64,000 bases of DNA from IMG/VR virus record IMGVR_UViG_3300045988_087374, one strand, 5' to 3'. The position numbers and the translations under genes were made by a program. The DNA is from a virus. Of the stretch, positions 14,014-49,916 are shown piece by piece. The notes under the pieces were generated by a model. It had not been told where the DNA came from, made no database searches, and saw only the letters and a program-made list of their open reading frames with translations. Position 1 is the first letter of the stretch; each line of letters begins with the position of its first letter.

Positions 14014-14201
14014 GCAAAGTTTTGTGCTTTATGGGAATTATGGCAGAAATAGGAGTGTTTTCCACAGTGGCAATCGTGCTGTGGTGGATAAGTGGAATGG
14101 ATGTATGGAAAATCCTGTGCATCAGTGCAGCTGCTTCAAGTCTTATTTCCCTTCCCATAATGCTCCAGATCGAGAGGTGGATAGATGGGAGAAAGCAATA
14201 A
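14010..14201 (+). CDS. 63-aa two-TM membrane protein
   Basis: MSKVLCFMGIMAEIGVFSTVAIVLWWISG...ILCISAAASSLISLPIML. Confidence 0.55.
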   Translation: MSKVLCFMGIMAEIGVFSTVAIVLWWISGMDVWKILCISAAASSLISLPIMLQIERWIDGRKQ

Positions 14202-14808
14202 AGCCACAGTAGTTGGAAGGTTCACAAAAGGATTTACCTATAGCTACTGTATGCATGGCGAAAATTTCTATACCACAGAAATTGCGGCAGAGCGGTTGAG
14301 CGGAAATTATGATTATATTCCGGTTACAATTTCCGAGCATCTAATTGATACGAGAGAGAACTTCACTGGAGAACCAGTGGAGCTTGTGGGAGATTTTCGT
14401 TCCTATAATAAGCAGGGAAAGAACCGAAGTCATCTAATCCTTACCTTGATGGCACAGGAGATCACGTTCGTAGATGATTCAGAAGCGTTTCCAGAGGACA
14501 AGATATTCCTTGATGGATTCATCTGCAAGCCGCCTACATACAGGAGAACTCCTCTTGGAAGAGAAATCGCAGAAATATTACTTGCAGTGAACAGGCCTTA
14601 CGAAAGATCAGATTATATACCGTGTATCTGCTGGGGAAGAAATGCGAGATGGGCAAGGAAACTTCCGGTTGGAATTGGGCTTACCATACATGGAAGAATC
14701 CAGAGCCGGGAATATGGAAAAGAATCCAAAATGGCATATGAAGTATCAATTAATAATATGGGAGTGAGAATTAATGAAAACAGTGGAATTAAAGCAGCTC
14801 AGTGTTGA
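14185..14808 (+). CDS. tandem OB-fold SSB-like protein
   Basis: Two SSB-like halves (VVGRFTKGF...LVGDFRSYNK and FLDGFICKPPTYRRTP...IHGRIQSREY). No acidic tail. Confidence 0.7.
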   Translation: MGESNKATVVGRFTKGFTYSYCMHGENFYTTEIAAERLSGNYDYIPVTISEHLIDTRENFTGEPVELVGDFRSYNKQGKNRSHLILTLMAQEITFVDDSEAFPEDKIFLDGFICKPPTYRRTPLGREIAEILLAVNRPYERSDYIPCICWGRNARWARKLPVGIGLTIHGRIQSREYGKESKMAYEVSINNMGVRINENSGIKAAQC

Positions 14809-16735
14809 GAACTATAAAAAATTAGAGTCTGCATCTTACCAGTTTGCACCAAGAACAATGGTATCTGGAAGAAACAGGCAGGGAAAGTCTACGTTGATGG
14901 ATGCGTATTTCGACACGCTGACAGGAAAATTGGCAGACGGTACACTTCCGAGCAACGTCAGAAGAAAAGTTGACGGTGAGGAAGTCGAAGGTGACATTAT
15001 CAGAGAATTAGTTCTTCTTATTGGCGGAACAGAAACCGTGATCCGCAAGGAAACGAAGAAAGGTAAATCTTCCAGCACCACAAAGTATCAGGTGGATGGG
15101 TTTGATTATAATAAGAAGAAATTTGAAGAATATCTGAGCAGTATTGCAGACCCGGAAGTAATTCTGATGTGTAGTAATGCCAGAATATTTCTGAACGAAA
15201 TCCGAAAATCTTCAGTGGGAGCAAAAGGACTTCTTGAAAAAATGGCGGGATTTGATATTGCAGAATTTATGAAAAAACATTCCGAAGTATCGAAAATCAC
15301 AAAAGGTCATTCGGTAGAAGAAACTATGAGGAAGCTCAGTAAAGAACGGCTTAATCAGAAGAAGGAACTGGATGCTAAGAAATCCGAACTTCAGTCTGCA
15401 AGAAGCAAGGAAATTGAGTGTGTAGACCGAACAGAAGAGAGAGAAAACCTTCTGGACAAACTGAGTGAATTAAAGCAGAAGATGCAGCAGTTGTCGGATT
15501 CCAGTAAAGCATACGACGAACTGTCCTATGAGATTACAGGATTGAAGAAATCCATGAATGCACTGGTTGCGGATGCAGAGAAAGAACGAAGAAATGTAGC
15601 TTCCTTATATAATGACCGCGTATTCAAGAAAAAACAGGAAGAAGAAAATCTTCGCACACTTGAAAATCTTCTGGCAACTGCCGAAAAACCGGAACGTATA
15701 CAACAGAGAATCACGGTATTGCAGGAGAAATACAAACAGGCATATGCGTCCAGTTTTGACGATTCTGCACTGAAAGAAATCGAAGCAGAGGAATTCAATC
15801 CGGAATCAACCATTTGCCCGACTTGTGGTCAGAATCTTCCAGAAGATCAGATTGAACAGCTTAAGTCCAATTTCGAGAGGATTAAACAGATCAGAATTGA
15901 TGCAGAACTGAAAAAGAAAGAACAGTTCGAAAAAGACAAACAGCAGAAACTCAGAGAAATCAATGAAGATGGACAAGCGGAAGTTGCCAGAAAGAAAGAA
16001 GTAGACAAGTCACGCGGAGAACTGGAATCCCAGATTGAGCAGACAAAACAGAGCATTGTAACACTTGCATCCGAGGTTGTTCAGATTAAGCAGAGATGGA
16101 AAAGTATGCCGGAAGAACCGGATATGTCAGGTAATGAAGAATACCAGGCATTGCTAGCCGAAGTCCAGAAGAAGCAGGAGCAGATGGACAGCATGGCAAA
16201 TAACTCCGGTGAGAAAGAAACTGTCATGCAAGAACGGATGGAAGTAGAACGTCAGTTAGCACAGATAGACGCGGACATTCGGCAGCAGGAGAAAATGAAG
16301 CAGGAAAAAGCAGACGAAATCGAACGGTTGACAAAAGAACAGAGAGAAATTTCCCAGAAAGAATCCGATGTTCAGTCACAGATTGATTTGCTGAAAGAAT
16401 TTTCCATCCAGAAGAATCAGGCACTTGCGGATACAATCAATCCACACTTTAAACATTTCCAGTTCCAGTTTTTAGACTACACACAGGACGGAGAACCAGT
16501 GGAAGTATGCCGGATGATCGTAGATGGTATTGATTACTTCAACGGGCTGAACCACTCTGATCAGATTCTGTGCAACATTGATCTTGTGGCAGGATTACAG
16601 GAACTGAACGGTTTGAACTTGCCAATTTGGGTTGACGATGCAGAATCTGTGAATGAAGAACGATTCCCAAAGATGGAACAGCAGGTTATTTATTTGAAAG
16701 TATCTGACAACGAGTTGAAAGTGGAGGGATTCTAA
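14774..16735 (+). CDS. Rad50/SbcC-like AAA ATPase with coiled coil and CxxC hook
   Basis: Walker A GRNRQGKST, a ~400-aa Glu/Lys coiled coil with CPTCGQ, and Walker B LPIWVDDAES. Confidence 0.85.
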   Translation: MKTVELKQLSVENYKKLESASYQFAPRTMVSGRNRQGKSTLMDAYFDTLTGKLADGTLPSNVRRKVDGEEVEGDIIRELVLLIGGTETVIRKETKKGKSSSTTKYQVDGFDYNKKKFEEYLSSIADPEVILMCSNARIFLNEIRKSSVGAKGLLEKMAGFDIAEFMKKHSEVSKITKGHSVEETMRKLSKERLNQKKELDAKKSELQSARSKEIECVDRTEERENLLDKLSELKQKMQQLSDSSKAYDELSYEITGLKKSMNALVADAEKERRNVASLYNDRVFKKKQEEENLRTLENLLATAEKPERIQQRITVLQEKYKQAYASSFDDSALKEIEAEEFNPESTICPTCGQNLPEDQIEQLKSNFERIKQIRIDAELKKKEQFEKDKQQKLREINEDGQAEVARKKEVDKSRGELESQIEQTKQSIVTLASEVVQIKQRWKSMPEEPDMSGNEEYQALLAEVQKKQEQMDSMANNSGEKETVMQERMEVERQLAQIDADIRQQEKMKQEKADEIERLTKEQREISQKESDVQSQIDLLKEFSIQKNQALADTINPHFKHFQFQFLDYTQDGEPVEVCRMIVDGIDYFNGLNHSDQILCNIDLVAGLQELNGLNLPIWVDDAESVNEERFPKMEQQVIYLKVSDNELKVEGF

Positions 16736-16736
16736 C

Positions 16737-16967
16737 ATGACGTACAATATTCCAGAAGCTATCAAGGCACAGGAACAATTCTGTGACAAGAACGAATATC
16801 CATGTTTTGCACCGGATAATGGCATCTGTTGGGATTGCCATCAGAATATCTATTCCGAAAATGGTAGAACCAGATACGGCAAGGAAACACATGGTATTTC
16901 GGTGGAAAGTGCCGGACATTATCTGATTACAGGATGCCCGTTTTGCAGTAGAAGCTATTGCGATTGA
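16737..16967 (+). CDS. Cys-rich zinc-binding protein
   Basis: 76 aa with CWDC and CPFC pairs. Confidence 0.65.
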   Translation: MTYNIPEAIKAQEQFCDKNEYPCFAPDNGICWDCHQNIYSENGRTRYGKETHGISVESAGHYLITGCPFCSRSYCD

Positions 16968-17275
16968 GTTAAAACAGCTAGCACGGAAAAGCAACGGAAC
17001 TGCTTAGGAGAGCCAAGAACAGTGAAGGAACGGTACAGATAAGAAACGTTGCGGAAATGAGTGGTATAGACATGCAGGGGAAATGAAATGCAGTGAGAGG
17101 CCCAGTAGAGCAAAGGAATTGAAAAGCAAGGTAAAGTAGAGCGGTGGAAAAGCAAGGCAAAGTGGAGTGCTGGAAATGCGTAGAAAGGCAACGCTGGGCG
17201 TAGGCAAAGTGGAGTGGCGAGAGGTCATGCAGTCTGATGCAAAGCAATAATTCATAAAAAAGGAGAAAAATTGAG
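16968..17275 (+). other. purine-rich ORF-free leader R1 (candidate structured RNA or regulatory leader)
   Basis: Hand count on 16981-17220: 63 pyrimidines in 240 nt. 17007-17191 contains no TTA/CTA/TCA. Ends in AAAAGGAGAA SD. Confidence 0.5.
17126..17223 (+). repeat. degenerate 26-nt tandem repeats GCAAGGyAAAGTrGAGyGsTGGAAA
   Basis: Copies at 17126-17151 and 17152-17177, and a third related copy at 17198-17223. No intervening spacers. Confidence 0.6.
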
Positions 17276-17872
17276 ATGAAAGAAATGAAAGTTAGATTAA
17301 CATTTTTAGAGGAAGTTCTGGGAACTGCAAATGCAGAAAGAGATATTCACGAGAAGTTCATTGCATCTAAAGCACCAGATGCACCTTCTAGAGAACAGGA
17401 AGTTGAAGCCCTTGGAGTTGAAGAAGTTGTCGAAAAAGGAAGAACAGTGTTCCCGAAAGATGAAAACGGCAATCCGTTCTTATGGGACTATCAGATCAGA
17501 GGATTTTTCAAATCAGCTGCACAGGCAGGTTCCTACGTGGGTGGAACAAAGAAACTCGCAGCATACAAAAAGAAAATCGACTTACTGGTATTTGTGAATG
17601 AACGAAAGATTCCATTTATTCTTCCAGAAGGTACAGGACTTTCTGATTGCCAGAGACCATTGAGAGCACAGACAGCACAGGGCGAAAGAATTTCTTTAGC
17701 AGACAGTGAAACCGTACCGGCAGGTTCGACAGTAGAATTCACAATCAAAGTACTGGACGATTCACTGATGAAATATGTAATCGACTGGCTTGATTATGGG
17801 CAGTTCAATGGTATTGGTCAGTGGCGAAACTCAGGTAAAGGCCGTTTCAAATGGACTGAAATCACGAAATAA
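17276..17872 (+). CDS. hypothetical protein of the recombination module (RAMP-like glycine-rich C-terminus, or a PD-(D/E)XK-like nuclease)
   Basis: 198 aa. VRLTFLEEVLGT, IRGFFKSAAQ, IDLLVFVNERK, and C-terminal GIGQWRNSGKGRFKW. Confidence 0.8.
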   Translation: MKEMKVRLTFLEEVLGTANAERDIHEKFIASKAPDAPSREQEVEALGVEEVVEKGRTVFPKDENGNPFLWDYQIRGFFKSAAQAGSYVGGTKKLAAYKKKIDLLVFVNERKIPFILPEGTGLSDCQRPLRAQTAQGERISLADSETVPAGSTVEFTIKVLDDSLMKYVIDWLDYGQFNGIGQWRNSGKGRFKWTEITK

Positions 17873-18177
17873 GCTACGGCATGGCTGATTGTAGTTATGA
17901 TAGGTAAAGCAAATGCGTGGAATGGCCGGGTATTGATCTGTTTCGGCGAAGCGTAGCTTAGCAAGGTAATGCAAGGGAATAGTCCTGAAAGGCGATGATG
18001 TGTGTTGTATAGGCATAGTGCAGAAAAGTCATGAACAGCAAAGACGGAGCATAGAATGGAGTAGTAAAGCATTGGAGAAGCAAAGAATGGAAAAGTAATG
18101 AAATGCAAAGGCGAAGTATGGTGCTGAACAGAAATGCGTCGGAAGAATAATTATAATTATTGAAAAGGAGAATTAAA
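17873..18177 (+). other. purine-rich ORF-free leader R2, paralogous to R1
   Basis: Shares the ordered blocks AATGAAATGCA (18097), GTGCTG (18121), GAAATGCGT (18131) and the AAAAGGAGAA SD with R1. Confidence 0.5.
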
Positions 18178-19281
18178 ATGGCAGAAAACACACAGGTAGC
18201 AAATTTTAACACACAGCTTTCCTATTACACAAATCGTTATGTCGATTTAATGGAAAGAGATTTAACTTCAAGAGGAATGGAATTTGATTCCTACTCAAAA
18301 GATTGCGTAGTAGCGGCAATGGGATCTATTTTCCAGATGGTGCATGAGAGTGGCGTGAACTTTGAAGCAATCAACGGCTCTAATCTTAAATTTATCCTGA
18401 GTAAAGTTGCAGCGTTGAAACTGAATGCAAATGCACAGCCGAGAGAATGTTATTTCCAGATTAGAAATGTAAATGTAGCAGCGAAAGGGCAGAAACCTCA
18501 GTGGGAGAAGAAAGTCGAATTTGCGATTGAGGGTGATGGAAACGATGCTCTTGTAAGTAGATATGGTGTCAATGTGGCTAAAGTATTTCCATATTGGAAA
18601 GTCAGAGAGGGCGACAAATATACGCCGCCAAGACATAGAGGTGTGGAGATTACACCGCCGGAATGGGAAGAATCCGGAATTGGAAAAGTGGTTCGCGTCG
18701 TATATCCGATTCAGTACAAGGACGGACATATTGAATATCTTTCTTGCGAAAGAGCAGATGTACTGAAGAATCTTGCAGCACATATCAAGAATAATCTTCA
18801 GAATGAAACGTTTGGGATTTGTGCAGACAGATACAAAGCTACAGATGCACAGAAAGCTCAGATTGAAGCAAAGAAAAAAGAAATCATGAAAAAGGTTGCT
18901 GATATTGGGGAACTGGAAGCAATTATTGATTGTGAGGAATTAAGACCGTACATTTCCCCGTCTTACTACGAAACACAGTCCAGAGAATCCATGATTATCC
19001 GTAAAATGCGTAACAACATTATGAAGTCTATTCCTAAGAAATGGGATAATTCGGTGCAGGCATATGAATATAACACGTTGGACGCTACATACAGGGAAGT
19101 ACAGGAAGAGATCGAACAGAATGCCAACAAAGAGGAATTTATTCCAGAACCAATGGCAATCGAGGAACAGCCGAAACAGCCGACAGTTGCAGAAGTTGTA
19201 CATTCAGCTGAGAAAGAACCAGTTCCGGCAGCAGTCGTGGAACCGGAAATTCCAGAATTCATGAAACAGGAGGAAATGTGA
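18178..19281 (+). CDS. recT: RecT-family single-strand annealing protein (putative)
   Basis: Start moved to MAENTQ (AAAAGGAG SD). RECYFQIRN...AIEGDGNDALVSRYGV...VREGDKYT resembles the RecT core. Acidic C-terminal tail. Confidence 0.7.
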   Translation: MAENTQVANFNTQLSYYTNRYVDLMERDLTSRGMEFDSYSKDCVVAAMGSIFQMVHESGVNFEAINGSNLKFILSKVAALKLNANAQPRECYFQIRNVNVAAKGQKPQWEKKVEFAIEGDGNDALVSRYGVNVAKVFPYWKVREGDKYTPPRHRGVEITPPEWEESGIGKVVRVVYPIQYKDGHIEYLSCERADVLKNLAAHIKNNLQNETFGICADRYKATDAQKAQIEAKKKEIMKKVADIGELEAIIDCEELRPYISPSYYETQSRESMIIRKMRNNIMKSIPKKWDNSVQAYEYNTLDATYREVQEEIEQNANKEEFIPEPMAIEEQPKQPTVAEVVHSAEKEPVPAAVVEPEIPEFMKQEEM

Positions 19282-19282
19282 T

Positions 19283-19888
19283 ATGAACAATAAAGAAATT
19301 TTACAGAAAGCAAAGGAACTGGTTGAACTTCTGGAAAAGCAGGAAGAAACTGAAAAGATTGAGTTGTCAACACTGAAACGAGGAGAAGTATTTCAGACCA
19401 CTGGAAAGCGTAAATACAAGGTTCTGGAACAGTATGGAGATACAACGAAAATTATTTCACTTGATCTGGTGAAAAAAAATGTGGAATTCGGAGACAACAC
19501 GGATTACAACAAATCAAATGTAAAGAAGTTATGCGACACAGAAATCTTAAAGGATTTTGAGGAAGAATTTGGTGCTGAAAGCATCGAAGAGCATACGGTA
19601 GATATTATTACCGTGGATGGACAGAAAGTCGGAAGTGTAAAATGTAAAATCCGTCCAATTACATTTGATGAAGCACGAGAATACACAGATATTACACCGA
19701 ACAATGATCTGAACGACTGGTATTGGACGTTGTCGCCATGGTCGACAGAAGAACGTGGTTGGAGTAAAAGCTTGGCCGTTGTTTCCCCTTCGGGCTATAT
19801 CTTCAGCGTCAATTACGTCAACGCTAATGGTGTTCGCCCAGTTTGTATCTTAAAATCTAATATCTTTGTATCTAAGGTGGAGGAATGA
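19283..19888 (+). CDS. DGR target protein 1 (DUF6273-like, C-type-lectin-fold variable C-terminus)
   Basis: 201 aa. WYWTLSPWS...VVSPSGYIFSVNYVNANGVRPVCI carries VR1. No signal peptide. Confidence 0.85.
   Translation: MNNKEILQKAKELVELLEKQEETEKIELSTLKRGEVFQTTGKRKYKVLEQYGDTTKIISLDLVKKNVEFGDNTDYNKSNVKKLCDTEILKDFEEEFGAESIEEHTVDIITVDGQKVGSVKCKIRPITFDEAREYTDITPNNDLNDWYWTLSPWSTEERGWSKSLAVVSPSGYIFSVNYVNANGVRPVCILKSNIFVSKVEE
19776..19840 (+). repeat. DGR variable region VR1
   Basis: 65 nt. 10 mismatches to TR, all at TR adenines. Confidence 0.9.
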
Positions 19889-20490
19889 TTATGAAGAAAA
19901 ATCTGAAATATTTCGAGAATGAATTATCTCGGTTGAATAAAGAATTTGCAGATTATAAGAAAAAATATATCGGAACACCGGAAATTGGAAAAGTTATTGA
20001 ACTTGCTGGAATGGATTGGCTGATTCTGGATAAGACAGAAAAAGGATATTTTGCCATTTTGAATGGATTTGATGAAAAAGAAAGAACATTTGATTCAACT
20101 TCAAATAACTGGATTACAAGTAAACTGAGAAATGAGTTAAATGCTCGTTTTCTTAAAAAAATTACGGACGAGCTTGGGAAAGATGCAGTTATTGAGTTTG
20201 ATCGAGATTTACTTTCTATGGACGGCCAGACGGAATACGGACATTGTAAAGATAAGATTTCATTTTTGACGGTTGATGAATACCGAAAATACAGAAAATT
20301 ACTTACAAATATGGATAAATGGTGGTGGCTGCTTACTCCATGGAGTACACCAGTAAATGATTTCAGCACAACAATTACCGTTGTTTCCCCTTCGGGCTTT
20401 ATCTACAACGACGGTTACGACTACGTAAATGGTGTTCGCCCAGTTTGTATCTTTTCTTCTTCAATCTTTGAATCAGGAAGTGATGATTAA
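19885..20490 (+). CDS. DGR target protein 2 (paralogue of target 1)
   Basis: 201 aa. WWWLLTPWS...VVSPSGFIYNDGYDYVNGVRPVCI carries VR2. ATGA overlap with target 1. Confidence 0.85.
   Translation: MIMKKNLKYFENELSRLNKEFADYKKKYIGTPEIGKVIELAGMDWLILDKTEKGYFAILNGFDEKERTFDSTSNNWITSKLRNELNARFLKKITDELGKDAVIEFDRDLLSMDGQTEYGHCKDKISFLTVDEYRKYRKLLTNMDKWWWLLTPWSTPVNDFSTTITVVSPSGFIYNDGYDYVNGVRPVCIFSSSIFESGSDD
20378..20442 (+). repeat. DGR variable region VR2
   Basis: 65 nt. 9 mismatches to TR, all at TR adenines. Confidence 0.9.
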
Positions 20491-20861
20491 TGGCAAATGA
20501 AGACTTAAAGGTAATAACAAAGGCTAAGCAGCTCGCAAAGCATACATTAATAGTTACCAGCAATTGCAGACGATATCCAAAGAAATACAGGTTTTCGTTG
20601 GTAGATAAGATGCAAAATAAAGCATTAGAAATCTATGAGTTGCTTTTTGAAGCCAACCGAACTGATCTGAAAGATTATAAAAGAGAACGGTTAGAACTGC
20701 AAACAAAAGCTATTACTTATTGCGATGAGTTGATGTACTTTATAGAACTTTCATATGAATTAGGAATTATCAATTCCGGTGGAATGGAAGCATGGTCGCA
20801 AATGGTAAAAGATATAAAGTACATGACTATTTCATGGAGAACAAAAGACAGAAAAAGATAA
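20490..20861 (+). CDS. avd: accessory variability determinant (Avd, four-helix-bundle / 23S rRNA IVS family)
   Basis: 123 aa, basic and helical (KAKQLAKHTLIVTSNCRRYPKKYRFSLVDKMQNKALEIYELLFEAN). Sits between the target and TR. Confidence 0.8.
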   Translation: MANEDLKVITKAKQLAKHTLIVTSNCRRYPKKYRFSLVDKMQNKALEIYELLFEANRTDLKDYKRERLELQTKAITYCDELMYFIELSYELGIINSGGMEAWSQMVKDIKYMTISWRTKDRKR

Positions 20862-20887
20862 TTTTCACAGGTTATGCACTGCGAATA

Positions 20888-20952
20888 CCGTTGTTTCCCC
20901 TTCGGGCAATATCAACAACAACAATTACAACAACGAAAATGGTGTTCGCCCA
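20888..20952 (+). repeat. DGR template repeat (TR)
   Basis: CCGTTGTTTCCCCTTCGGGC-AATATCAACAACAACAATTACAACAACGAAAAT-GGTGTTCGCCCA in the avd-RT intergenic region. Confidence 0.9.
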
Positions 20953-21056
20953 ACATGGATCACATGCAGACAGAGTAAGCGTAAAGCTGAAATCAGAAAA
21001 GATACAAGCAAATGCATAACCTTTTCGCAATGGACAAATATAAAGGAACAAAATAA

Positions 21057-22076
21057 ATGGATAAAGAAATTGTTGCAAATTTTGAGAATTTATATCGTTC
21101 TTACAAAAAGGTTAAGAGCGGCAAGAGATTTAATTCAGGTACTGCAAGATTTTCTAATTTGTCTCTTGAAGGCCTTCATCTCTTGAAAGAACAATTGGAA
21201 AGTCAAACGTATACCATAAATCCGTATAATAAATTTCAAATTCATGAGCCAAAAGAGCGAACGATAGAATCATGTGCATTTAAGGACAAAGTAGTGCAGA
21301 GATGCTTTTCTGATTACATTCTGACACCGAAACTTGAAAATATCCTGATTAAATGGAACACTGCCGGGCAGCAAGGAAAAGGACAACACATGGCAATGGA
21401 CGGGTTAAGAAATCAAATGTTGGATTTCTATAAAAGAAATGGAATGAATAGTTGGATTGTAAAATGTGATATTCACAAATACTTTTATTGCATAGACCAT
21501 GAAATCATGAAAGATGTTTTGGATTATTACTTTGATGATGATTTTACAGTCTGGTTGAACCATTTGTTTATTGACAGTACAGGTAATCCCGGGCTTCCAT
21601 TAGGAAATCAGGTAAATCAGAAGTACGCATTGTTGCTTTTACATTCACTGGATCAGATGATAACGATTGAATTTGGAAATCCATATTACGGACGATACAA
21701 CGATGATTTTTATGTGATTTGTAAAACGAAAGAAGATGCCAGAGAAATTCTCGAAGCAATCCGAATGATGATTGAAAGTCTTAGACTGGAATTAAACCCT
21801 AAATCACAAATTGTACCATTTCGCATGGGATTGTGTTATCTGGGCTTTCATCATTACGTGACTGATGAAGGAAAATATATCAGAAAATTGCGTGGTGATA
21901 AGAAAAGAAAAACACAGAGAAAAATCCGAAGATGGGTACGGGCAGTGAATGACGGGAAGATGTCGATGGAAAAATTCCATGAAAAATACGGATCATGCAA
22001 GAATCATATGCTTCATGGAAATTGCACCAAACTATGTCATAGTATGGATTTAGAAATTGAAAGGAGAATGAAGTGA
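21057..22076 (+). CDS. DGR reverse transcriptase
   Basis: 339 aa. LPLGNQVNQ is a variant of the DGR-specific (I/L)GxxxSQ motif. Catalytic RYNDDF box. Confidence 0.9.
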   Translation: MDKEIVANFENLYRSYKKVKSGKRFNSGTARFSNLSLEGLHLLKEQLESQTYTINPYNKFQIHEPKERTIESCAFKDKVVQRCFSDYILTPKLENILIKWNTAGQQGKGQHMAMDGLRNQMLDFYKRNGMNSWIVKCDIHKYFYCIDHEIMKDVLDYYFDDDFTVWLNHLFIDSTGNPGLPLGNQVNQKYALLLLHSLDQMITIEFGNPYYGRYNDDFYVICKTKEDAREILEAIRMMIESLRLELNPKSQIVPFRMGLCYLGFHHYVTDEGKYIRKLRGDKKRKTQRKIRRWVRAVNDGKMSMEKFHEKYGSCKNHMLHGNCTKLCHSMDLEIERRMK

Positions 22077-28156: not shown

Positions 28157-28498
28157 ATGGCAGAGAATTGCAATGAATGCAGTATCGCGTGGATTCGCGG
28201 TGGTGAGTATGCAGAGGTGTCGGCGTACAGTGGGAGCAAATTAAAAGGGAGAGTCCTTAAATTATCAGAACAGTTCCCGGATGATGTGAAGATTCTGGCT
28301 ACGAACAAAGACGGTTCAATTTTTGCTCATATTCCGGCTAAGTATGTGAAATTACGTGCACCGAAAATTTTGACGGAAGAGCAGAGAGCGGAACTGATCG
28401 AGCGAGGCAAGAGTATGTCGAGAAGCAAAGCAATTGATTGTGAAGAAACGTCAGATTTCGATTCTGACGATGATAACGAGGAAATGTTCACGTTTTAA
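28157..28498 (+). CDS. hypothetical protein
   Basis: 113-aa ORF. Confidence 0.65.
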   Translation: MAENCNECSIAWIRGGEYAEVSAYSGSKLKGRVLKLSEQFPDDVKILATNKDGSIFAHIPAKYVKLRAPKILTEEQRAELIERGKSMSRSKAIDCEETSDFDSDDDNEEMFTF

Positions 28499-28515
28499 AG
28501 AAAGGCGGTTTTAAG

Positions 28516-28743
28516 ATGAGTAAAGTAAAATCTTATGGATTAAAAGCATATGTATCTAAGGCGTTCGGATTGGATGTCGGAAGCCGAATTAAACGTACTA
28601 AATGTGGCGAGGAAGAAAAAGAGCATATCTACGAGGTAAAACAGCTTTTTCCACATTGCGTTTTGCTGGAAGATATTTACGATCACACAAGAATTTGCCC
28701 TTGTTACAGTAAATTAAGTTTGATGTTAAGAGGGATTGAATAA
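28516..28743 (+). CDS. hypothetical protein
   Basis: 75-aa ORF. Confidence 0.55.
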   Translation: MSKVKSYGLKAYVSKAFGLDVGSRIKRTKCGEEEKEHIYEVKQLFPHCVLLEDIYDHTRICPCYSKLSLMLRGIE

Positions 28744-28942
28744 AAAACTGGTTAAAAAGATGGGAGTATAGATGATTAAAAGAAAGGAATAACGAATCCT
28801 CGGTAAACTGAGGTTGTATCAAGATTAGAATGGTGAATTGATACATAAAGTTTGGCGGAGTGGCTGTGCCTAAGTAAGCACTTAATAATGAATCCAAGCC
28901 GATTGCTAAACTATCCTCACACAGGATTTGTAGCGTGATGTT

Positions 28943-29653
28943 ATGAAAGTATGTTGGTTTTCGACAGGAATAAGCAGTTTTGTAGCGTGTTATCTGGCAA
29001 AGGATGTTGATGAGATTATTTATACTCATGTATCGAATCAGCATCCAGACAGTCTGAGGTTCTTGCATGATTGCGAGAAGTTGCTAGGAAGAAAGATAAC
29101 GATAATCCAGTCAGATAGGTTTGACTCAGTGGATAACGTGATGGAGTTCACGCACACAATGAATACTCCGTTTGGTTCTCCATGTACGAGATATTTGAAA
29201 AAAGAAGTAAGAAAAAAATGGGAATCTGAGCATCCGGATCACCACATATATGTATGGGGGTTTGATGTAAATGAAAAGAGTAGGGCAGAGAATACCTGTA
29301 AGGCTCTAAGCGATTACGACCATGAGTTTCCATTAATTGAACACAGATTAACTAAGCAAGAAGCACACGGAATAGCGGACAGGTTAGGATTAAAACGTCC
29401 AATTATGTACGATTTAGGATATTCGAACAACAATTGCATTGGATGTGTCAAAGGCGGCATGGGCTACTGGAATAAAATTAGGAAGGACTTCCCCGAAGTA
29501 TTTCAAAAGCGTGCGGAGCAAGAGCGTAGATTTGGAAGAAGTTGCATAAACGGAGTATTCCTTGATGAATTAGAACCAGACAGAGGAGATATTAACACAG
29601 AAATCATGGAGGACTGCACAATAGCGTGTCAGTTGCTTACATGGGGAAAGTGA
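28943..29653 (+). CDS. PAPS-reductase-like adenine-nucleotide alpha-hydrolase family protein
   Basis: N-terminal KVCWFSTGISSFVACYLA resembles the PP-loop. The family is common in phages next to DUF4417/ParB-type genes. Confidence 0.7.
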   Translation: MKVCWFSTGISSFVACYLAKDVDEIIYTHVSNQHPDSLRFLHDCEKLLGRKITIIQSDRFDSVDNVMEFTHTMNTPFGSPCTRYLKKEVRKKWESEHPDHHIYVWGFDVNEKSRAENTCKALSDYDHEFPLIEHRLTKQEAHGIADRLGLKRPIMYDLGYSNNNCIGCVKGGMGYWNKIRKDFPEVFQKRAEQERRFGRSCINGVFLDELEPDRGDINTEIMEDCTIACQLLTWGK

Positions 29654-48845: not shown

Positions 48846-48917
48846 AGGGCTATCACCAAAAGGTAAGGTAACGGGCTTTGATCCCGTCATGTGTGGGTTC
48901 GAATCCCACTAGCCCCG
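48846..48917 (+). tRNA. tRNA-Gln (anticodon UUG)
   Basis: Hand-folded: anticodon arm ACGGG-CTTTGAT-CCCGT, T arm GTGGG-TTCGAAT-CCCAC, acceptor AGGGCTA/TAGCCCC with an A1.C72 mismatch, 3-bp D stem. Confidence 0.75.
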
Positions 48918-48963
48918 CTTGCCAAGATTTTTGGCACTTATGTTTTCTTTTTTTCACCTCGTT

Positions 48964-49016
48964 ACCATCTAGCTCAACGGAGCTGATTAAAGGGACTTCA
49001 AATGTCCCGGATGGTT
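48964..49016 (+). ncRNA. tRNA-like element lacking an anticodon arm
   Basis: Acceptor ACCATCT/GGATGGT, hairpin GCTC-AACG-GAGC, 8-nt linker, T arm GGGAC-TTCAAAT-GTCCC. Confidence 0.5.
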
Positions 49017-49124
49017 TTCTCGGATCATAGCAGGAGGTGCTTATCGAGAGCCTTTGTTGCGACTGGTGGTTAAGAATCGCAACAGCAGACGCATTGTTGC
49101 TGACAGCCTACAATGTGCTGCTCA

Positions 49125-49198
49125 GGAAATTTAGTTCAGTTGGTCAGAACGTCCGGCTCATAACCGGAAAGTCCAGGGTTCGAGTCCCTGAATTTCCA
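49125..49198 (+). tRNA. tRNA-Met or Ile2 (anticodon CAU)
   Basis: Perfect cloverleaf: GGAAATT/AATTTCC acceptor, D arm GTTC-AGTTGGTCA-GAAC, TCCGG-CTCATAA-CCGGA, T arm CAGGG-TTCGAGT-CCCTG. Confidence 0.9.
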
Positions 49199-49559
49199 TC
49201 TCTTTCCTGAATGCCATTCGTACCGTAAAACGAATGGAAAAAACTTGCCGATTGAGCGTTTTGGCAATGTCTGTACGAGTGCGATACGGCGTAGCTTGTG
49301 CAAGGGATTGCTTTTCCGGTCGGCGTGCATCTCGGAGTAGTAATGTTTGGTGTAACGTGCACTTGGCATGGTGAGTTTTCAAGAGATGCAGTCTTCAAAA
49401 GACATACGTATACAGAATCCTAAACAACTCCGTGGAGCATACCACGGTTACCAAAAAGCCGTCAGGTTGGCAAAAATACGATAGTCCAAGTTATGAAAAA
49501 TTGCCTAGTGGAACGCATAACACGAAAAAATCATTGCTAACCCGGGGTGTCCGGGTTGA

Positions 49560-49630
49560 CGCAGGATGGAGTATAGGTAACTCGCGGGCCTCCTTAGCCC
49601 GAAAGGGTGGTTCAATTCCGCCTCCTGCAA
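49560..49630 (+). tRNA. tRNA-Arg (anticodon CCU)
   Basis: D arm GAGT-ATAGGTA-ACTC, CGGGC-CTCCTTA-GCCCG, T arm GGTGG-TTCAATT-CCGCC, acceptor with a C1.A72 mismatch. Confidence 0.8.
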
Positions 49631-49844
49631 TTTGCCAAGAGAAACAAGGTGTCCCAGCCCTTACAACTTGGGTGGGCGGTTTAATTCCGCAAGTCGGCAG
49701 TTCCGGCAGATACTCCTCTAGCAAAAGGTTATTGCTATCCTGTTTATCGGTTTTCGGTTCAAAAAGCAAGTTCTCAATTTTCTCTCTGTGGTGTGAAAAT
49801 CAACCCAAACACTTAAATAAAGTGTTTGACCGTTACAGGCGGTA

Positions 49845-49916
49845 CGGAATGTAGCTCAGTGGTAGAGCAATGGCTTTGTAAGCTATGTGCCGCAAGTTCG
49901 ATTCTTGCCTTTCCGA
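49845..49916 (+). tRNA. tRNA-Thr (anticodon UGU)
   Basis: D arm GCTC-AGTGGTA-GAGC, ATGGC-TTTGTAA-GCTAT, T arm GCAAG-TTCGATT-CTTGC. One U.U mismatch in the acceptor. Confidence 0.8.

What the first reader, a model, noticed from the sequence alone, without database searches (positions are those of the whole stretch)
16968..18177. Two paralogous ~300-nt purine-rich ORF-free leaders flanking a protein with a Cas6/RAMP-style glycine-rich C-terminus, next to RecT
The early operon is otherwise tightly packed, yet two ~300-nt gaps (16968-17275 and 17873-18177) precede consecutive genes. Each gap ends in the same AAAAGGAGAA Shine-Dalgarno context. R1 is 74% purine on the sense strand by hand count (63 pyrimidines in 240 nt, 16981-17220). 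It contains no TTA/CTA/TCA between 17007 and 17191, which explains the three overlapping artefactual minus-strand ORFs in the track. R1 and R2 share ordered blocks: AATGAAATGCA (17082 / 18097), GTGCTG (17167 / 18121) and GAAATGCGT (17173 / 18131). R1 also carries 26-nt degenerate tandem repeats (17126-17223). The enclosed 198-aa protein ends GIGQWRNSGKGRFKW, which fits the GhGxxxxxGxG glycine-rich loop of Cas6/RAMP RNA-binding proteins. It starts with a beta-strand-like VRLTFLEEVLGT and has IRGFFKSAA. An alternative reading is a PD-(D/E)XK nuclease (IDLLVFVNERK) acting as the RecT partner. A duplicated long purine-rich leader around such a protein is not something I can assign to a known element.
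Basis: partly seen in the sequence, partly recalled or inferred. Interest (0 to 1): 0.65.

Follow-up and report, generated by a model that had tools for sequence, protein, structure and literature searches.

The report
Phage VIPR repeat-RNA silencing module
The two "leaders" are arrays of five-base repeats which, with the small Cas7-like protein between them, most likely form a VIPR system, a phage weapon first described in 2026 that uses repeat RNAs to find and silence the DNA of rival phages.

Summary

Both gaps parse almost perfectly into NNNNG pentamers, with an NNNNGG hexamer every 5-7 units. The best period is 5.15 nt, and the signal occurs nowhere else in the 64 kb.

The 198-aa protein models as a single-RRM RAMP. 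Its best structural matches are Cas7/Csm3 (Foldseek E about 1e-8). It does not look like Cas6 or a PD-(D/E)XK nuclease.

At least 118 of 122 related loci (39-96% protein identity) carry a same-strand array of this kind directly next to the gene. The array sequence itself turns over fast.

This anatomy matches VIPR systems (bioRxiv 10.64898/2026.04.26.720920 and .720927). In those, one Vipr protomer binds each pentanucleotide repeat of a vrRNA, and the filament recognises double-stranded DNA through a gapped code. Profile comparison with the characterised phage SUSP1 Vipr family is collinear end to end (E 4.6e-5).

The repeat here is the non-canonical NNNNG form, which the preprint mentions only in its Methods. 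The locus has no structured 3' tail and no identifiable accessory gene, and I found no targets.

Verdict: a new member of a recently described kind. The RecT adjacency is lineage-specific.

The parts
16973..17244 (+). Upstream pentamer-repeat array (candidate vrRNA array 1). It has about 51 units of NNNNG with 8 NNNNGG hexamers. It is punctuated into runs of 5-7 units and is 72% purine.
   Evidence: The parse gives 98% of units ending in G. Periodicity power is 23.2 at period about 5.15. There are stops in all frames. There is no significant RNA structure (z -0.48) and no Rfam match.
17258..17267 (+). Shine-Dalgarno context AAAAGGAGAA of the vipr-like gene.
   Evidence: It is one of only two copies in the window and lies 9 nt upstream of the ATG at 17276.
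17276..17872 (+). vipr-like gene encoding a 198-aa single-RRM RAMP. The protein has a helical insertion (about residues 22-56), a thumb hairpin (about 123-147) and a G-loop, G179-I-G-Q-W-R-N-S-G-K-G189-R-F.
   Evidence: AF2 model: pLDDT 80.8, pTM 0.75. Foldseek against PDB: Cas7/Csm3/Cmr4, E 1e-8, TM 0.55-0.59. BFVD: 55%-identical 'Cas system-associated RAMP superfamily protein', TM 0.89. hhalign against the SUSP1 Vipr family: E 4.6e-5 over 183 columns. No Pfam or PHROG hit.
17875..18145 (+). Downstream pentamer-repeat array (candidate vrRNA array 2). It has about 53 units. Its first ~40-120 nt and last ~70 nt are conserved in relatives, and the middle is replaced or changed in length.
   Evidence: Parse. 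Power 19.6. BLAST against relatives. No significant structure (z +0.64).
18163..18172 (+). Second AAAAGGAGAA Shine-Dalgarno context, serving the RecT-like gene that starts at 18178.
   Evidence: RecT-like, phrog_2185, E 8.3e-119. The RecT-like gene is a neighbour, not a demonstrated part of the module.
16737..16967 (+). A 76-aa Cys-rich (zinc-ribbon-like) protein immediately upstream of array 1. It is only a candidate accessory (vap-like) gene and this is unproven.
   Evidence: phrog_20040, unknown function, E 5.8e-17. It co-occurs with the module in 39 of 116 loci, all in the window's own phage lineage.

Best explanation
The region 16973-18145 is a VIPR (Viral Interference Programmable Repeat) locus of a Clostridia-infecting gut phage. 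It consists of a vipr gene flanked on both sides by vrRNA arrays.

Shown here:
- The arrays are strings of NNNNG pentamers on the gene's strand.
- The protein is a small Cas7-like RAMP related to the characterised SUSP1 Vipr.
- The gene-array pairing is conserved across a very large family, while array sequence and length turn over quickly.

Inferred by analogy with the SUSP1 and P. fulva systems:
- The arrays are transcribed with the early operon.
- Their C-poor, unstructured composition would let them persist as untranslated RNA.
- They are cut or read as guide units.
- One Vipr protomer binds each pentamer. It holds the invariant G with the G-loop (W183/R184 align with SUSP1 W178/R179) and the thumb.
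- The protomers polymerise into a helical filament that presents the variable bases.
- The filament pairs through a gapped code with double-stranded DNA of a competing phage or prophage and represses its transcription.

This clade fixes only one G per repeat. SUSP1's G1-contacting H17 and D177 align with T17 and Q182 here. The clade also inserts an extra G (CAANGG) every 5-7 repeats. Its decoding rule is therefore probably not identical to the published 2-paired, 1-skipped rule, and it remains unknown.
For: Repeat anatomy:
- G periodicity has period 5.15 nt and is unique in the window.
- 98% of parsed units end in G. Over 1424 pentamers from 19 arrays, position 5 is G in 96% and position 1 is G in only 3%.
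- Position 5 also changes least between homologous arrays (4% against 9-12%).

Protein:
- The AF2 model is a single-RRM RAMP, and the Foldseek matches are Cas7-family proteins.
- Three independent weak sequence hits fall on the G-loop: Cas6 E 0.022, Csm4 E 0.09, type VII Cas7 E 0.42.

Co-occurrence:
- 80 of 80 IMG/VR loci have a same-strand array abutting the gene.
- 38 of 42 GTDB loci do so at the main threshold.
- Two more GTDB loci have array-like sequence just below threshold.

Turnover:
- Relatives whose protein is 94-96% identical have arrays that BLAST cannot align, or that are only about 79% identical.
- The gaps holding them range from 143 to 522 nt in these close relatives.

Match to the published system:
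- VIPR is a ~20 kDa RAMP with a thumb and a G-loop.
- Long flanking intergenic regions encode pentanucleotide tandem-repeat RNAs, with one protomer per repeat.
- The systems are mostly viral or proviral.
- The Methods list alternative NNNGG, YNNNG and NNNNG repeats.

Direct comparison with SUSP1:
- The SUSP1 locus (KT454805.2, 27.5-29.5 kb) has the same layout, and my periodicity scan flags only that locus in 50 kb.
- hhalign of our family against SUSP1 Vipr gives E 9.1e-5 with a single sequence and E 4.6e-5 with a profile. The alignment is end to end and the G-loops are in register.
Against: - Homology to the characterised Vipr is only moderate (hhalign probability 59-69%).
- The canonical GGY/NN consensus is absent. 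The position equivalent to G1 is G in only 19% of units.
- There is no conserved structured 3' tail or pseudoknot, and the arrays fold no better than shuffles.
- No ribozyme or other Rfam family was found.
- The period is 5.15, not 5.0, because of the extra G. SUSP1 arrays lack this feature.
- No accessory gene is shared across lineages.
- No targets were found, either in a local test of 36 rule variants or in two exact IMG/VR scans.
- Expression, processing and binding are untested.
- I could not place the protein in the preprint's seven-type phylogeny, because no supplementary data are held.
Confidence: 0.85

Rival explanations
1. Anti-CRISPR or decoy reading. The phage Cas7-like protein, alone or assembled on its own repeat RNA, mimics a backbone subunit. 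It would poison or sequester the host's type III or type I effector complexes, and the arrays would act as RNA scaffolds or sponges rather than guides.
For: The best structural matches are Csm3/Cmr4/type VII Cas7. Phages are known to carry cas homologues and repeat-like RNAs as anti-CRISPRs (papers listed, for example PMC10651486 and 10.1101/2023.06.24.545427). The module sits among early genes.
Against: The arrays have no CRISPR-repeat-like hairpin or repeat-spacer layout. The viral-cas preprint I checked does not describe a Cas7 homologue of this kind. The pentamer-per-protomer grammar and the rapid turnover of the variable positions are what a guide system predicts, and a sponge would not need them. 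The hhalign link is to Vipr.
Confidence: 0.05
2. DNA-level element. The repeats are iterons of a replication origin, or loading sites for the neighbouring SSB, SbcC-like or RecT proteins, and the RAMP gene is a passenger.
For: The module lies inside the replication/recombination block in this phage. There are 26/31-nt tandem units. The 5.15-nt period is about half a B-DNA helical turn.
Against: The G phase is always on the strand of the RAMP gene, in about 120 loci. The arrays travel with the RAMP gene into unrelated neighbourhoods such as XRE regulators, primase-like proteins and TnpB, while the RecT-like and SbcC-like genes do not. Origins are normally conserved among 95%-identical phages, whereas these arrays are not. 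No AT-rich unwinding element or inverted repeats were found.
Confidence: 0.04
3. The gaps are long 5' leaders processed by a Cas6-like endoribonuclease, or they are simple untranslated spacers or translational enhancers whose purine richness only avoids Rho and secondary structure.
For: Each gap ends in a strong Shine-Dalgarno sequence. The RNA is predicted to be unstructured and is C-poor. There is a weak PADLOC Cas6 hit, E 0.022.
Against: A leader or spacer function does not explain a G at every fifth base that holds over 150-900 nt and across proteins only 39% identical. The fold has one RRM and is Cas7-like, not a two-RRM Cas6. Cas6 substrates are hairpin repeats, and none exist here.
Confidence: 0.05

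Closest known systems
VIPR systems, type II (Escherichia phage SUSP1 and a Pseudomonas fulva prophage); bioRxiv 10.64898/2026.04.26.720920 and 10.64898/2026.04.26.720927
   Same: The protein is a ~195-200-aa RAMP with an RRM core, helical bundle, thumb and G-loop. The G-loop motif is G-x-G-(D/Q)-W-R...G-R-F. The gene is flanked by long intergenic arrays of pentanucleotide repeats on its own strand. The context is viral, with no cas genes. The variable repeat positions evolve fast. The two protein families align end to end.
   Different: - The repeat is NNNNG (H-N-N-N-G), not Y-N-N-G-G.
- SUSP1's G1-contact residues H17 and D177 align with T17 and Q182.
- An extra G (CAANGG) every 5-7 repeats gives a period of 5.15, against 5.0 in SUSP1.
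- The arrays are continuous over 270-900 nt, rather than discrete ~100-nt vrRNAs each capped by a pseudoknotted tail.
- No vap gene is recognisable.
- The hosts are Clostridia.
- The decoding rule and the targets are unknown.
Class 1 CRISPR backbone subunits (Cas7 family: Csm3, Cmr4, type VII Cas7)
   Same: These are the best structural matches (E 1e-8 to 1e-5, TM up to 0.59). The size is the same, and both have the G-rich loop, the thumb hairpin and the expected one-protomer-per-RNA-segment binding mode.
   Different: There is no CRISPR array, no Cas5, Cas6, Cas10 or Cas11, and no adaptation genes nearby. The RNA period is about 5 nt with a fixed G, instead of 6 nt with no base specificity. 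Sequence similarity is only marginal (E 0.09-0.42).
Type IV-B Csf2 filaments (PMC7937560)
   Same: A Cas7-like filament encoded on a mobile element without a CRISPR array. According to that paper's abstract, it assembles on RNA that is not a crRNA.
   Different: Csf complexes contain Cas11 and other subunits, bind heterogeneous cellular RNAs, and have no dedicated repeat array next to the gene. I did not compare them directly here.

Membership tests
VIPR system | The Vipr protein is a small (~20 kDa) RAMP with a single RRM core, a glycine-rich loop, a thumb hairpin and a helical bundle. | tested here: met
   The AF2 model (pLDDT 80.8) has the order beta1, helical insertion, alpha1, beta-hairpin 123-147, alpha2, G-loop, beta. 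Foldseek matches the Cas7 family with 165 hits at E<=1e-3. The protein is 198 aa.
VIPR system | Sequence relatedness to an experimentally characterised Vipr (SUSP1 ALH47069.1 family). | tested here: met
   hhalign of A2 against SUSP1 Vipr gives E 9.1e-5, probability 59%, 175 columns. A2 against the SUSP1-family profile A3 gives E 4.6e-5, probability 68.5%, 183 columns. The alignment is end to end with the G-loops in register. The support is moderate, not strong. tblastn alone finds no link.
VIPR system | The vipr gene is flanked by long intergenic regions made of pentanucleotide tandem repeats on the gene's strand. | tested here: met
   There are two arrays of about 51 and 53 units. The signal is unique in the window. 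It is present next to the homologue in at least 118 of 122 loci. The positive control on SUSP1 behaves the same way.
VIPR system | Canonical repeat consensus: conserved GGY alternating with a hypervariable NN (YNNGG). | tested here: not met
   Only one G is fixed (position 5, 96%). The G1-equivalent position is G in 19% of units. The Y3-equivalent position is A 39%, C 38%, T 19%, G 3%.
VIPR system | The alternative repeat consensus accepted by the authors for some types (NNNGG, YNNNG, NNNNG). | tested here: met
   The preprint's Methods, section 20, list these forms. The arrays here are NNNNG / HNNNG.
VIPR system | An invariant structured 3' tail (pseudoknot) caps each vrRNA. This is a type II feature. 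| tested here: not met
   No fold is better than shuffles (z -0.48 and +0.64). There is no recurring non-repeat segment inside the arrays. The only recurring mark is the CAANGG hexamer punctuation. The preprint describes other architectures (staggered, ribozyme-separated, single vrRNA) for other types.
VIPR system | An adjacent vap accessory gene (DNA-binding protein, nuclease or helicase). | tested here: inconclusive
   No neighbour family is shared across lineages. The 76-aa Cys-rich protein is found in 39 of 116 loci, and the SbcC-like and RecT-like genes in 48 of 116, all in one lineage.
VIPR system | A non-CRISPR context, mostly viral or proviral. | tested here: met
   The neighbours are phage replication/recombination genes and a DGR. 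No cas gene or CRISPR array lies in 13-23 kb. The relatives are IMG/VR viral contigs and prophage-bearing Clostridia genomes.
VIPR system | vrRNAs are expressed, processed and co-purify with Vipr, and the RNP binds double-stranded DNA and represses transcription. | not testable with these tools
   This needs RNA-seq, pull-down and reporter assays.
VIPR system | The variable bases match natural targets (competing phages) under a gapped rule. | tested here: inconclusive
   A test of 36 position/skip rules with exact gapped seeds on 1.7 Mb of related loci showed no excess over unit-shuffled controls. Two 20-base NN+1-skip patterns had 0 matches in IMG/VR. The database and the rule space were both very limited.
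CRISPR-Cas class 1 (Cas7 as part of an effector complex) | Association with a CRISPR array and with other cas genes. | tested here: not met
   None was found in the window neighbourhood or in the related loci inspected.
   The model has a single RRM. All of the top 50 PDB matches are Cas7-type. The arrays lack hairpins. The only sequence hint is PADLOC Cas6 at E 0.022.
   There is no Pfam, PHROG or NCBIfam hit. No such fold appears among the Foldseek matches.

The most novel reading that the evidence does not exclude
This very large gut-Clostridia phage clade may be a mechanistically distinct VIPR variant.

- Size: more than 7,900 clusters at 90% identity and about 1,750 at 50%, compared with 2,664 Vipr sequences in the founding preprint.
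- Fixed bases: only one base per repeat is fixed, which leaves up to four programmable positions.
- Array layout: the arrays are continuous, 270-900 nt long, and have no tail.
- Punctuation: a CAANGG hexamer every 5-7 repeats adds one extra nucleotide about once per helical turn of a Vipr filament. The SUSP1 filament has six subunits per turn in the binary state and five in the ternary state.

If this is right, the RNA-to-DNA decoding rule and the way guide units are delimited differ from the published 2-paired, 1-skipped code. One reading is ruler-like punctuation in place of a pseudoknot cap. Another is the 'staggered' arrays that the preprint mentions.
Probability: 0.35. Interest if true: 0.6.

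Novelty: new member of a known kind. Interest (0 to 1): 0.4.

Why it matters
VIPR was described only in 2026. It is proposed to be an ancestor of the CRISPR RAMPs and a minimal programmable DNA-binding platform.

This locus shows that a non-canonical NNNNG form is extremely abundant in human and animal gut phages of Lachnospiraceae, Oscillospiraceae and related Clostridia. It sits among early genes, and its arrays differ between phages that are otherwise nearly identical. That is the signature expected of an inter-phage arms race in the gut virome.

The locus also supplies a natural test case for how the Vipr G-loop reads one guanine instead of GGY, and for how guide units are delimited without a structured tail.

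In practical terms, these arrays are routinely mis-called as coding sequence. Examples are the 317-aa 'extended' proteins and the spurious antisense ORFs. The 5.15-nt G periodicity is a simple detector for them.

Tried and rejected
- Stop-codon recoding of the gaps. Rejected: all three stop codons occur in all three frames.
- A known RNA family or ribozyme. None was found at E<=1 in 14-23 kb, apart from a sub-threshold RT-2 hit in the DGR.
- A structured RNA. Rejected: z-scores are -0.48 and +0.64.
- Promoters or terminators bounding the gaps. Nothing exceeds the shuffle expectation.
- TRAP-like, CsrA-sponge-like and RecT-loading readings of the 5-nt period. I considered these before the protein's fold and the VIPR preprints made them unnecessary, and did not pursue them.
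- PD-(D/E)XK nuclease and Cas6. Rejected on fold.
- RecT partnership. Rejected as obligatory.
- Collinear paralogy of R1 and R2. Not supported.
- An alignment-based scan with the diverse alignment A2. It failed for lack of conserved stretches, so I used A1 instead.
- One literature search was badly worded and returned nothing useful.
- Target prediction, in three attempts:
  - Exact gapped seeds for 36 position/skip rules against 1.7 Mb of related loci showed no excess over unit-shuffled controls.
  - The few hits were A-rich low-complexity sequence or unmasked array ends.
  - Two exact IMG/VR scans of 10-repeat runs from relatives L111 and L099 under the published NN+1-skip rule gave 0 matches.
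- Supplementary data of the preprint, needed for type assignment, are not held.
Full report
**1. The observation**

The two gaps exist as described.
- 16968-17275 and 17873-18177 carry stop codons of all three kinds in all three + frames.
- They are 72.4% and 66.9% purine. 16986-17285 is the most purine-rich 300 nt of the window.
- The hand count of 63 pyrimidines in 16981-17220 is exact.
- There is no TTA/CTA/TCA in 17007-17191. This explains the three overlapping minus-strand ORFs.
- AAAAGGAGAA occurs only at 17258 and 18163.
- Tandem Repeats Finder sees a 26-nt period at 17121-17176.
- Neither gap matches an Rfam family or folds better than shuffles.
- No promoter or terminator consensus bounds the gaps.

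**2.

Both gaps have a G at every fifth base.
- Identity autocorrelation peaks at lags 5, 10, 16, 21, 26, 31 and 36, and coding controls show nothing.
- For G alone the peaks continue to lags 62-77 with maxima at 31 and 62. The best Fourier period is 5.15 nt in every array tested.
- A dynamic-programming parse cuts both gaps into NNNNG pentamers, with an NNNNGG hexamer every 5-7 units. 98% of units end in G.
- The parse scores are 44.2 and 45.6, against 15.7 +/- 3.1 and 12.2 +/- 3.4 for shuffles.
- In the whole 64 kb, on both strands, only these two segments exceed a power of 12. They reach 23.2 and 19.6, against a 99th percentile of 7.6.
- The R1-R2 similarity is not above shuffles of unit order (42/300). 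The gaps share a grammar, not collinear ancestry.

**3. The protein**

- The 198-aa product has no Pfam or PHROG family.
- Three independent weak hits fall on its C-terminal loop: PADLOC Cas6 at E 0.022, NCBIfam Csm4 at E 0.09, and PDB type VII Cas7 at E 0.42.
- An AF2 model built on 53 homologues has pLDDT 80.8 and pTM 0.75. It shows one RRM core, a low-confidence helical insertion (about residues 22-56), a beta-hairpin at 123-147 and the G-loop.
- Foldseek against the PDB returns only Cas7-type backbone subunits among the top 50: type VII Cas7, Csm3, Cmr4 and Cas7-11. E values are 1e-8 to 1e-5 and TM reaches 0.59.
- Against viral models, the best hit is a 55%-identical 'Cas system-associated RAMP superfamily protein' from an uncultured siphovirus (TM 0.89).
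- The family is very large and unannotated. More than 7,945 clusters at 90% identity score E<=1e-3, as do 1,757 clusters at 50% identity.
- The window's own 90% cluster has 2,218 members.
- GenBank phage records hold only four uncultured faecal phages with it.

**4. The gene and the arrays travel together**

- In 80 of 80 IMG/VR loci (59-96% protein identity), an array with period about 5.15 lies directly upstream, downstream or on both sides of the gene, with the G phase on the gene's strand.
- The same holds in 38 of 42 loci from GTDB genomes (39-66% identity). These come mainly from Lachnospiraceae, Oscillospiraceae and other Clostridia, and include the isolate Porcincola intestinalis.
- Two of the four GTDB exceptions (L083, L109) have array-like sequence just below threshold. 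The other two are partial protein matches.
- The arrays are 150-900 nt long.
- Array sequence is not conserved. Among relatives with 94-96% identical protein, R1 aligns in only five loci, at about 79%. Only the ends of R2 align, and gap length varies from 143 to 522 nt.
- Between alignable arrays, the G position changes least (4%), and the other four positions change at 9-12%.
- The hexamers have the consensus CAANGG. Together with the following pentamer they carry slightly more information than interior units. Runs contain 5-7 units, which gives the 26/31/36-nt spacing.
- Gene neighbourhoods differ between lineages: SbcC-like plus RecT-like, primase-like, XRE regulators, or TnpB. The RecT adjacency is lineage-specific, and no common accessory gene emerges.

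**5. Identification**

A literature search found two 2026 preprints describing VIPR systems. They report the following.
- A phage-encoded RAMP of about 20 kDa (Vipr) is flanked by long intergenic regions.
- These regions encode vrRNAs made of pentanucleotide tandem repeats. Type II has 9-16 YNNGG repeats plus a structured tail.
- The RNAs co-purify with the protein.
- The NN bases pair with double-stranded DNA while skipping every third target base.
- Natural targets are competing phages and prophages.
- There are seven types. Some loci use NNNGG, YNNNG or NNNNG repeats, and there are staggered or ribozyme-separated arrays.
- The structure paper shows one protomer per repeat in a right-handed filament. 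The filament has six subunits per turn in the binary state and five in the ternary state.
- In that structure, G1 is read by H17 and D177, G2 by R138 and W178, and Y3 by a pocket that includes R179.

**6. Direct comparison with SUSP1**

- In phage SUSP1 (KT454805.2) the locus is recognisable. A 195-aa protein is encoded at 28474-29061 (minus strand) and a 146-aa gene lies downstream. GGYNN arrays fill the flanking gaps.
- My periodicity scan flags only that locus in 50 kb, with a period of 4.98-5.02. This serves as a positive control and shows that the 5.15 period here is a real difference.
- hhalign of our family against SUSP1 Vipr gives E 9.1e-5 (probability 59%).
- Against a profile of 33 SUSP1-family proteins it gives E 4.6e-5 (probability 68.5%, 183 columns, end to end).
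- In that alignment, GVG-D177-W178-R179 lies over GIG-Q182-W183-R184, and H17 lies over T17. The residues that read G1 in SUSP1 are replaced here, and the Trp and Arg of the G-loop are kept.
- This fits a repeat with one fixed G instead of two. It is an inference from a moderate-confidence alignment. I could not assign the thumb arginine equivalence.

**7. Mechanism**

- Shown here: the anatomy, the fold, the homology, the co-occurrence and the turnover.
- Inferred from the SUSP1 and P. fulva work: the arrays are transcribed within the early operon, one protomer binds per pentamer around the invariant G, the protomers form a filament that displays the variable bases, and the filament recognises a competitor's DNA through gapped pairing and silences it.
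- Unknown for this clade: how many positions are read, how many target bases are skipped, and what the extra G does. It may delimit guide units, or it may add one nucleotide per filament turn. It is also unknown whether an accessory protein takes part.
- My attempts to find targets failed, but they were small in scale.

**8. Rivals**

- An anti-CRISPR decoy, a DNA-level origin or iteron element, and a plain leader with a Cas6-like processor each explain part of the data.
- None of them explains a strand-locked single-G pentamer grammar that follows the RAMP gene through unrelated neighbourhoods while its variable positions diverge.
- I give them 0.04-0.05 each, and 0.85 to VIPR membership.

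**9. Verdict**

- It belongs to a kind described in 2026, so it is not categorically new.
- It is an uncharacterised member carrying the non-canonical NNNNG repeat. It has punctuated, tail-less arrays and belongs to a very abundant gut-phage clade.
- Interest is moderate at 0.4. It would be higher if the decoding rule proves different.

Noticed in passing
window 19283-22076: A complete diversity-generating retroelement lies just downstream of the RecT-like gene. It has two DUF6273 target genes (19283-19888 and 19885-20490) with variable repeats at 19764-19849 and 20366-20451. It also has an Avd-like gene (20490-20861), an A-rich template repeat at 20876-20961 that is 80% identical to the second variable repeat (as is the first), and a reverse transcriptase (21057-22076). 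A sub-threshold Rfam RT-2 hit (E 0.06) overlaps 20961-21065.
   Followed up: partly
window 16955-17255 (minus strand) and the 90% protein cluster of 17276-17872: Gene callers read the pentamer arrays as coding sequence. Three overlapping minus-strand ORFs of 78-89 aa cover array 1. Many members of the protein's 2,218-member cluster are annotated as 317 aa, which would correspond to a gene call starting about 119 codons further upstream, in the array region (I did not check this by alignment).
   Followed up: partly
window 14185-16967: Upstream of the module lie three genes. The first is an SSB-domain protein with a long N-terminal extension (207 aa; phrog_26861). The second is a 653-aa SbcC/SMC-like ATPase with weak LmuB/JetC PADLOC hits. 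The third is a 76-aa Cys-rich protein (phrog_20040). No exonuclease partner for the RecT-like gene was seen in 13-23 kb.
   Followed up: no
window 18178-19281: The RecT-like protein matches phrog_2185 at E 8.3e-119 but has no Pfam RecT hit at E<=0.01. The first listed start for its ORF is a TTG at 18160, and the ATG at 18178 follows the Shine-Dalgarno sequence.
   Followed up: no
window 48846-49916: A cluster of four tRNA genes: Gln-TTG, Met-CAT, Arg-CCT and Thr-TGT.
   Followed up: no
L099 6561-7045, L084 8381-8585, L093 1741-1965, L098 3661-3875: Some related loci carry additional periodic-G segments with other periods (4.92-4.95 and about 6.0), a few kb from the vipr-like gene. They could be a second repeat type or coding periodicity. 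I did not examine them.
   Followed up: no
L040 1161-2267: In one relative, a TnpB/IS605 OrfB-like gene lies about 730 nt upstream of the vipr-like gene, separated from it by one 220-aa ORF. This puts two different RNA-guided systems close together on one phage contig.
   Followed up: no
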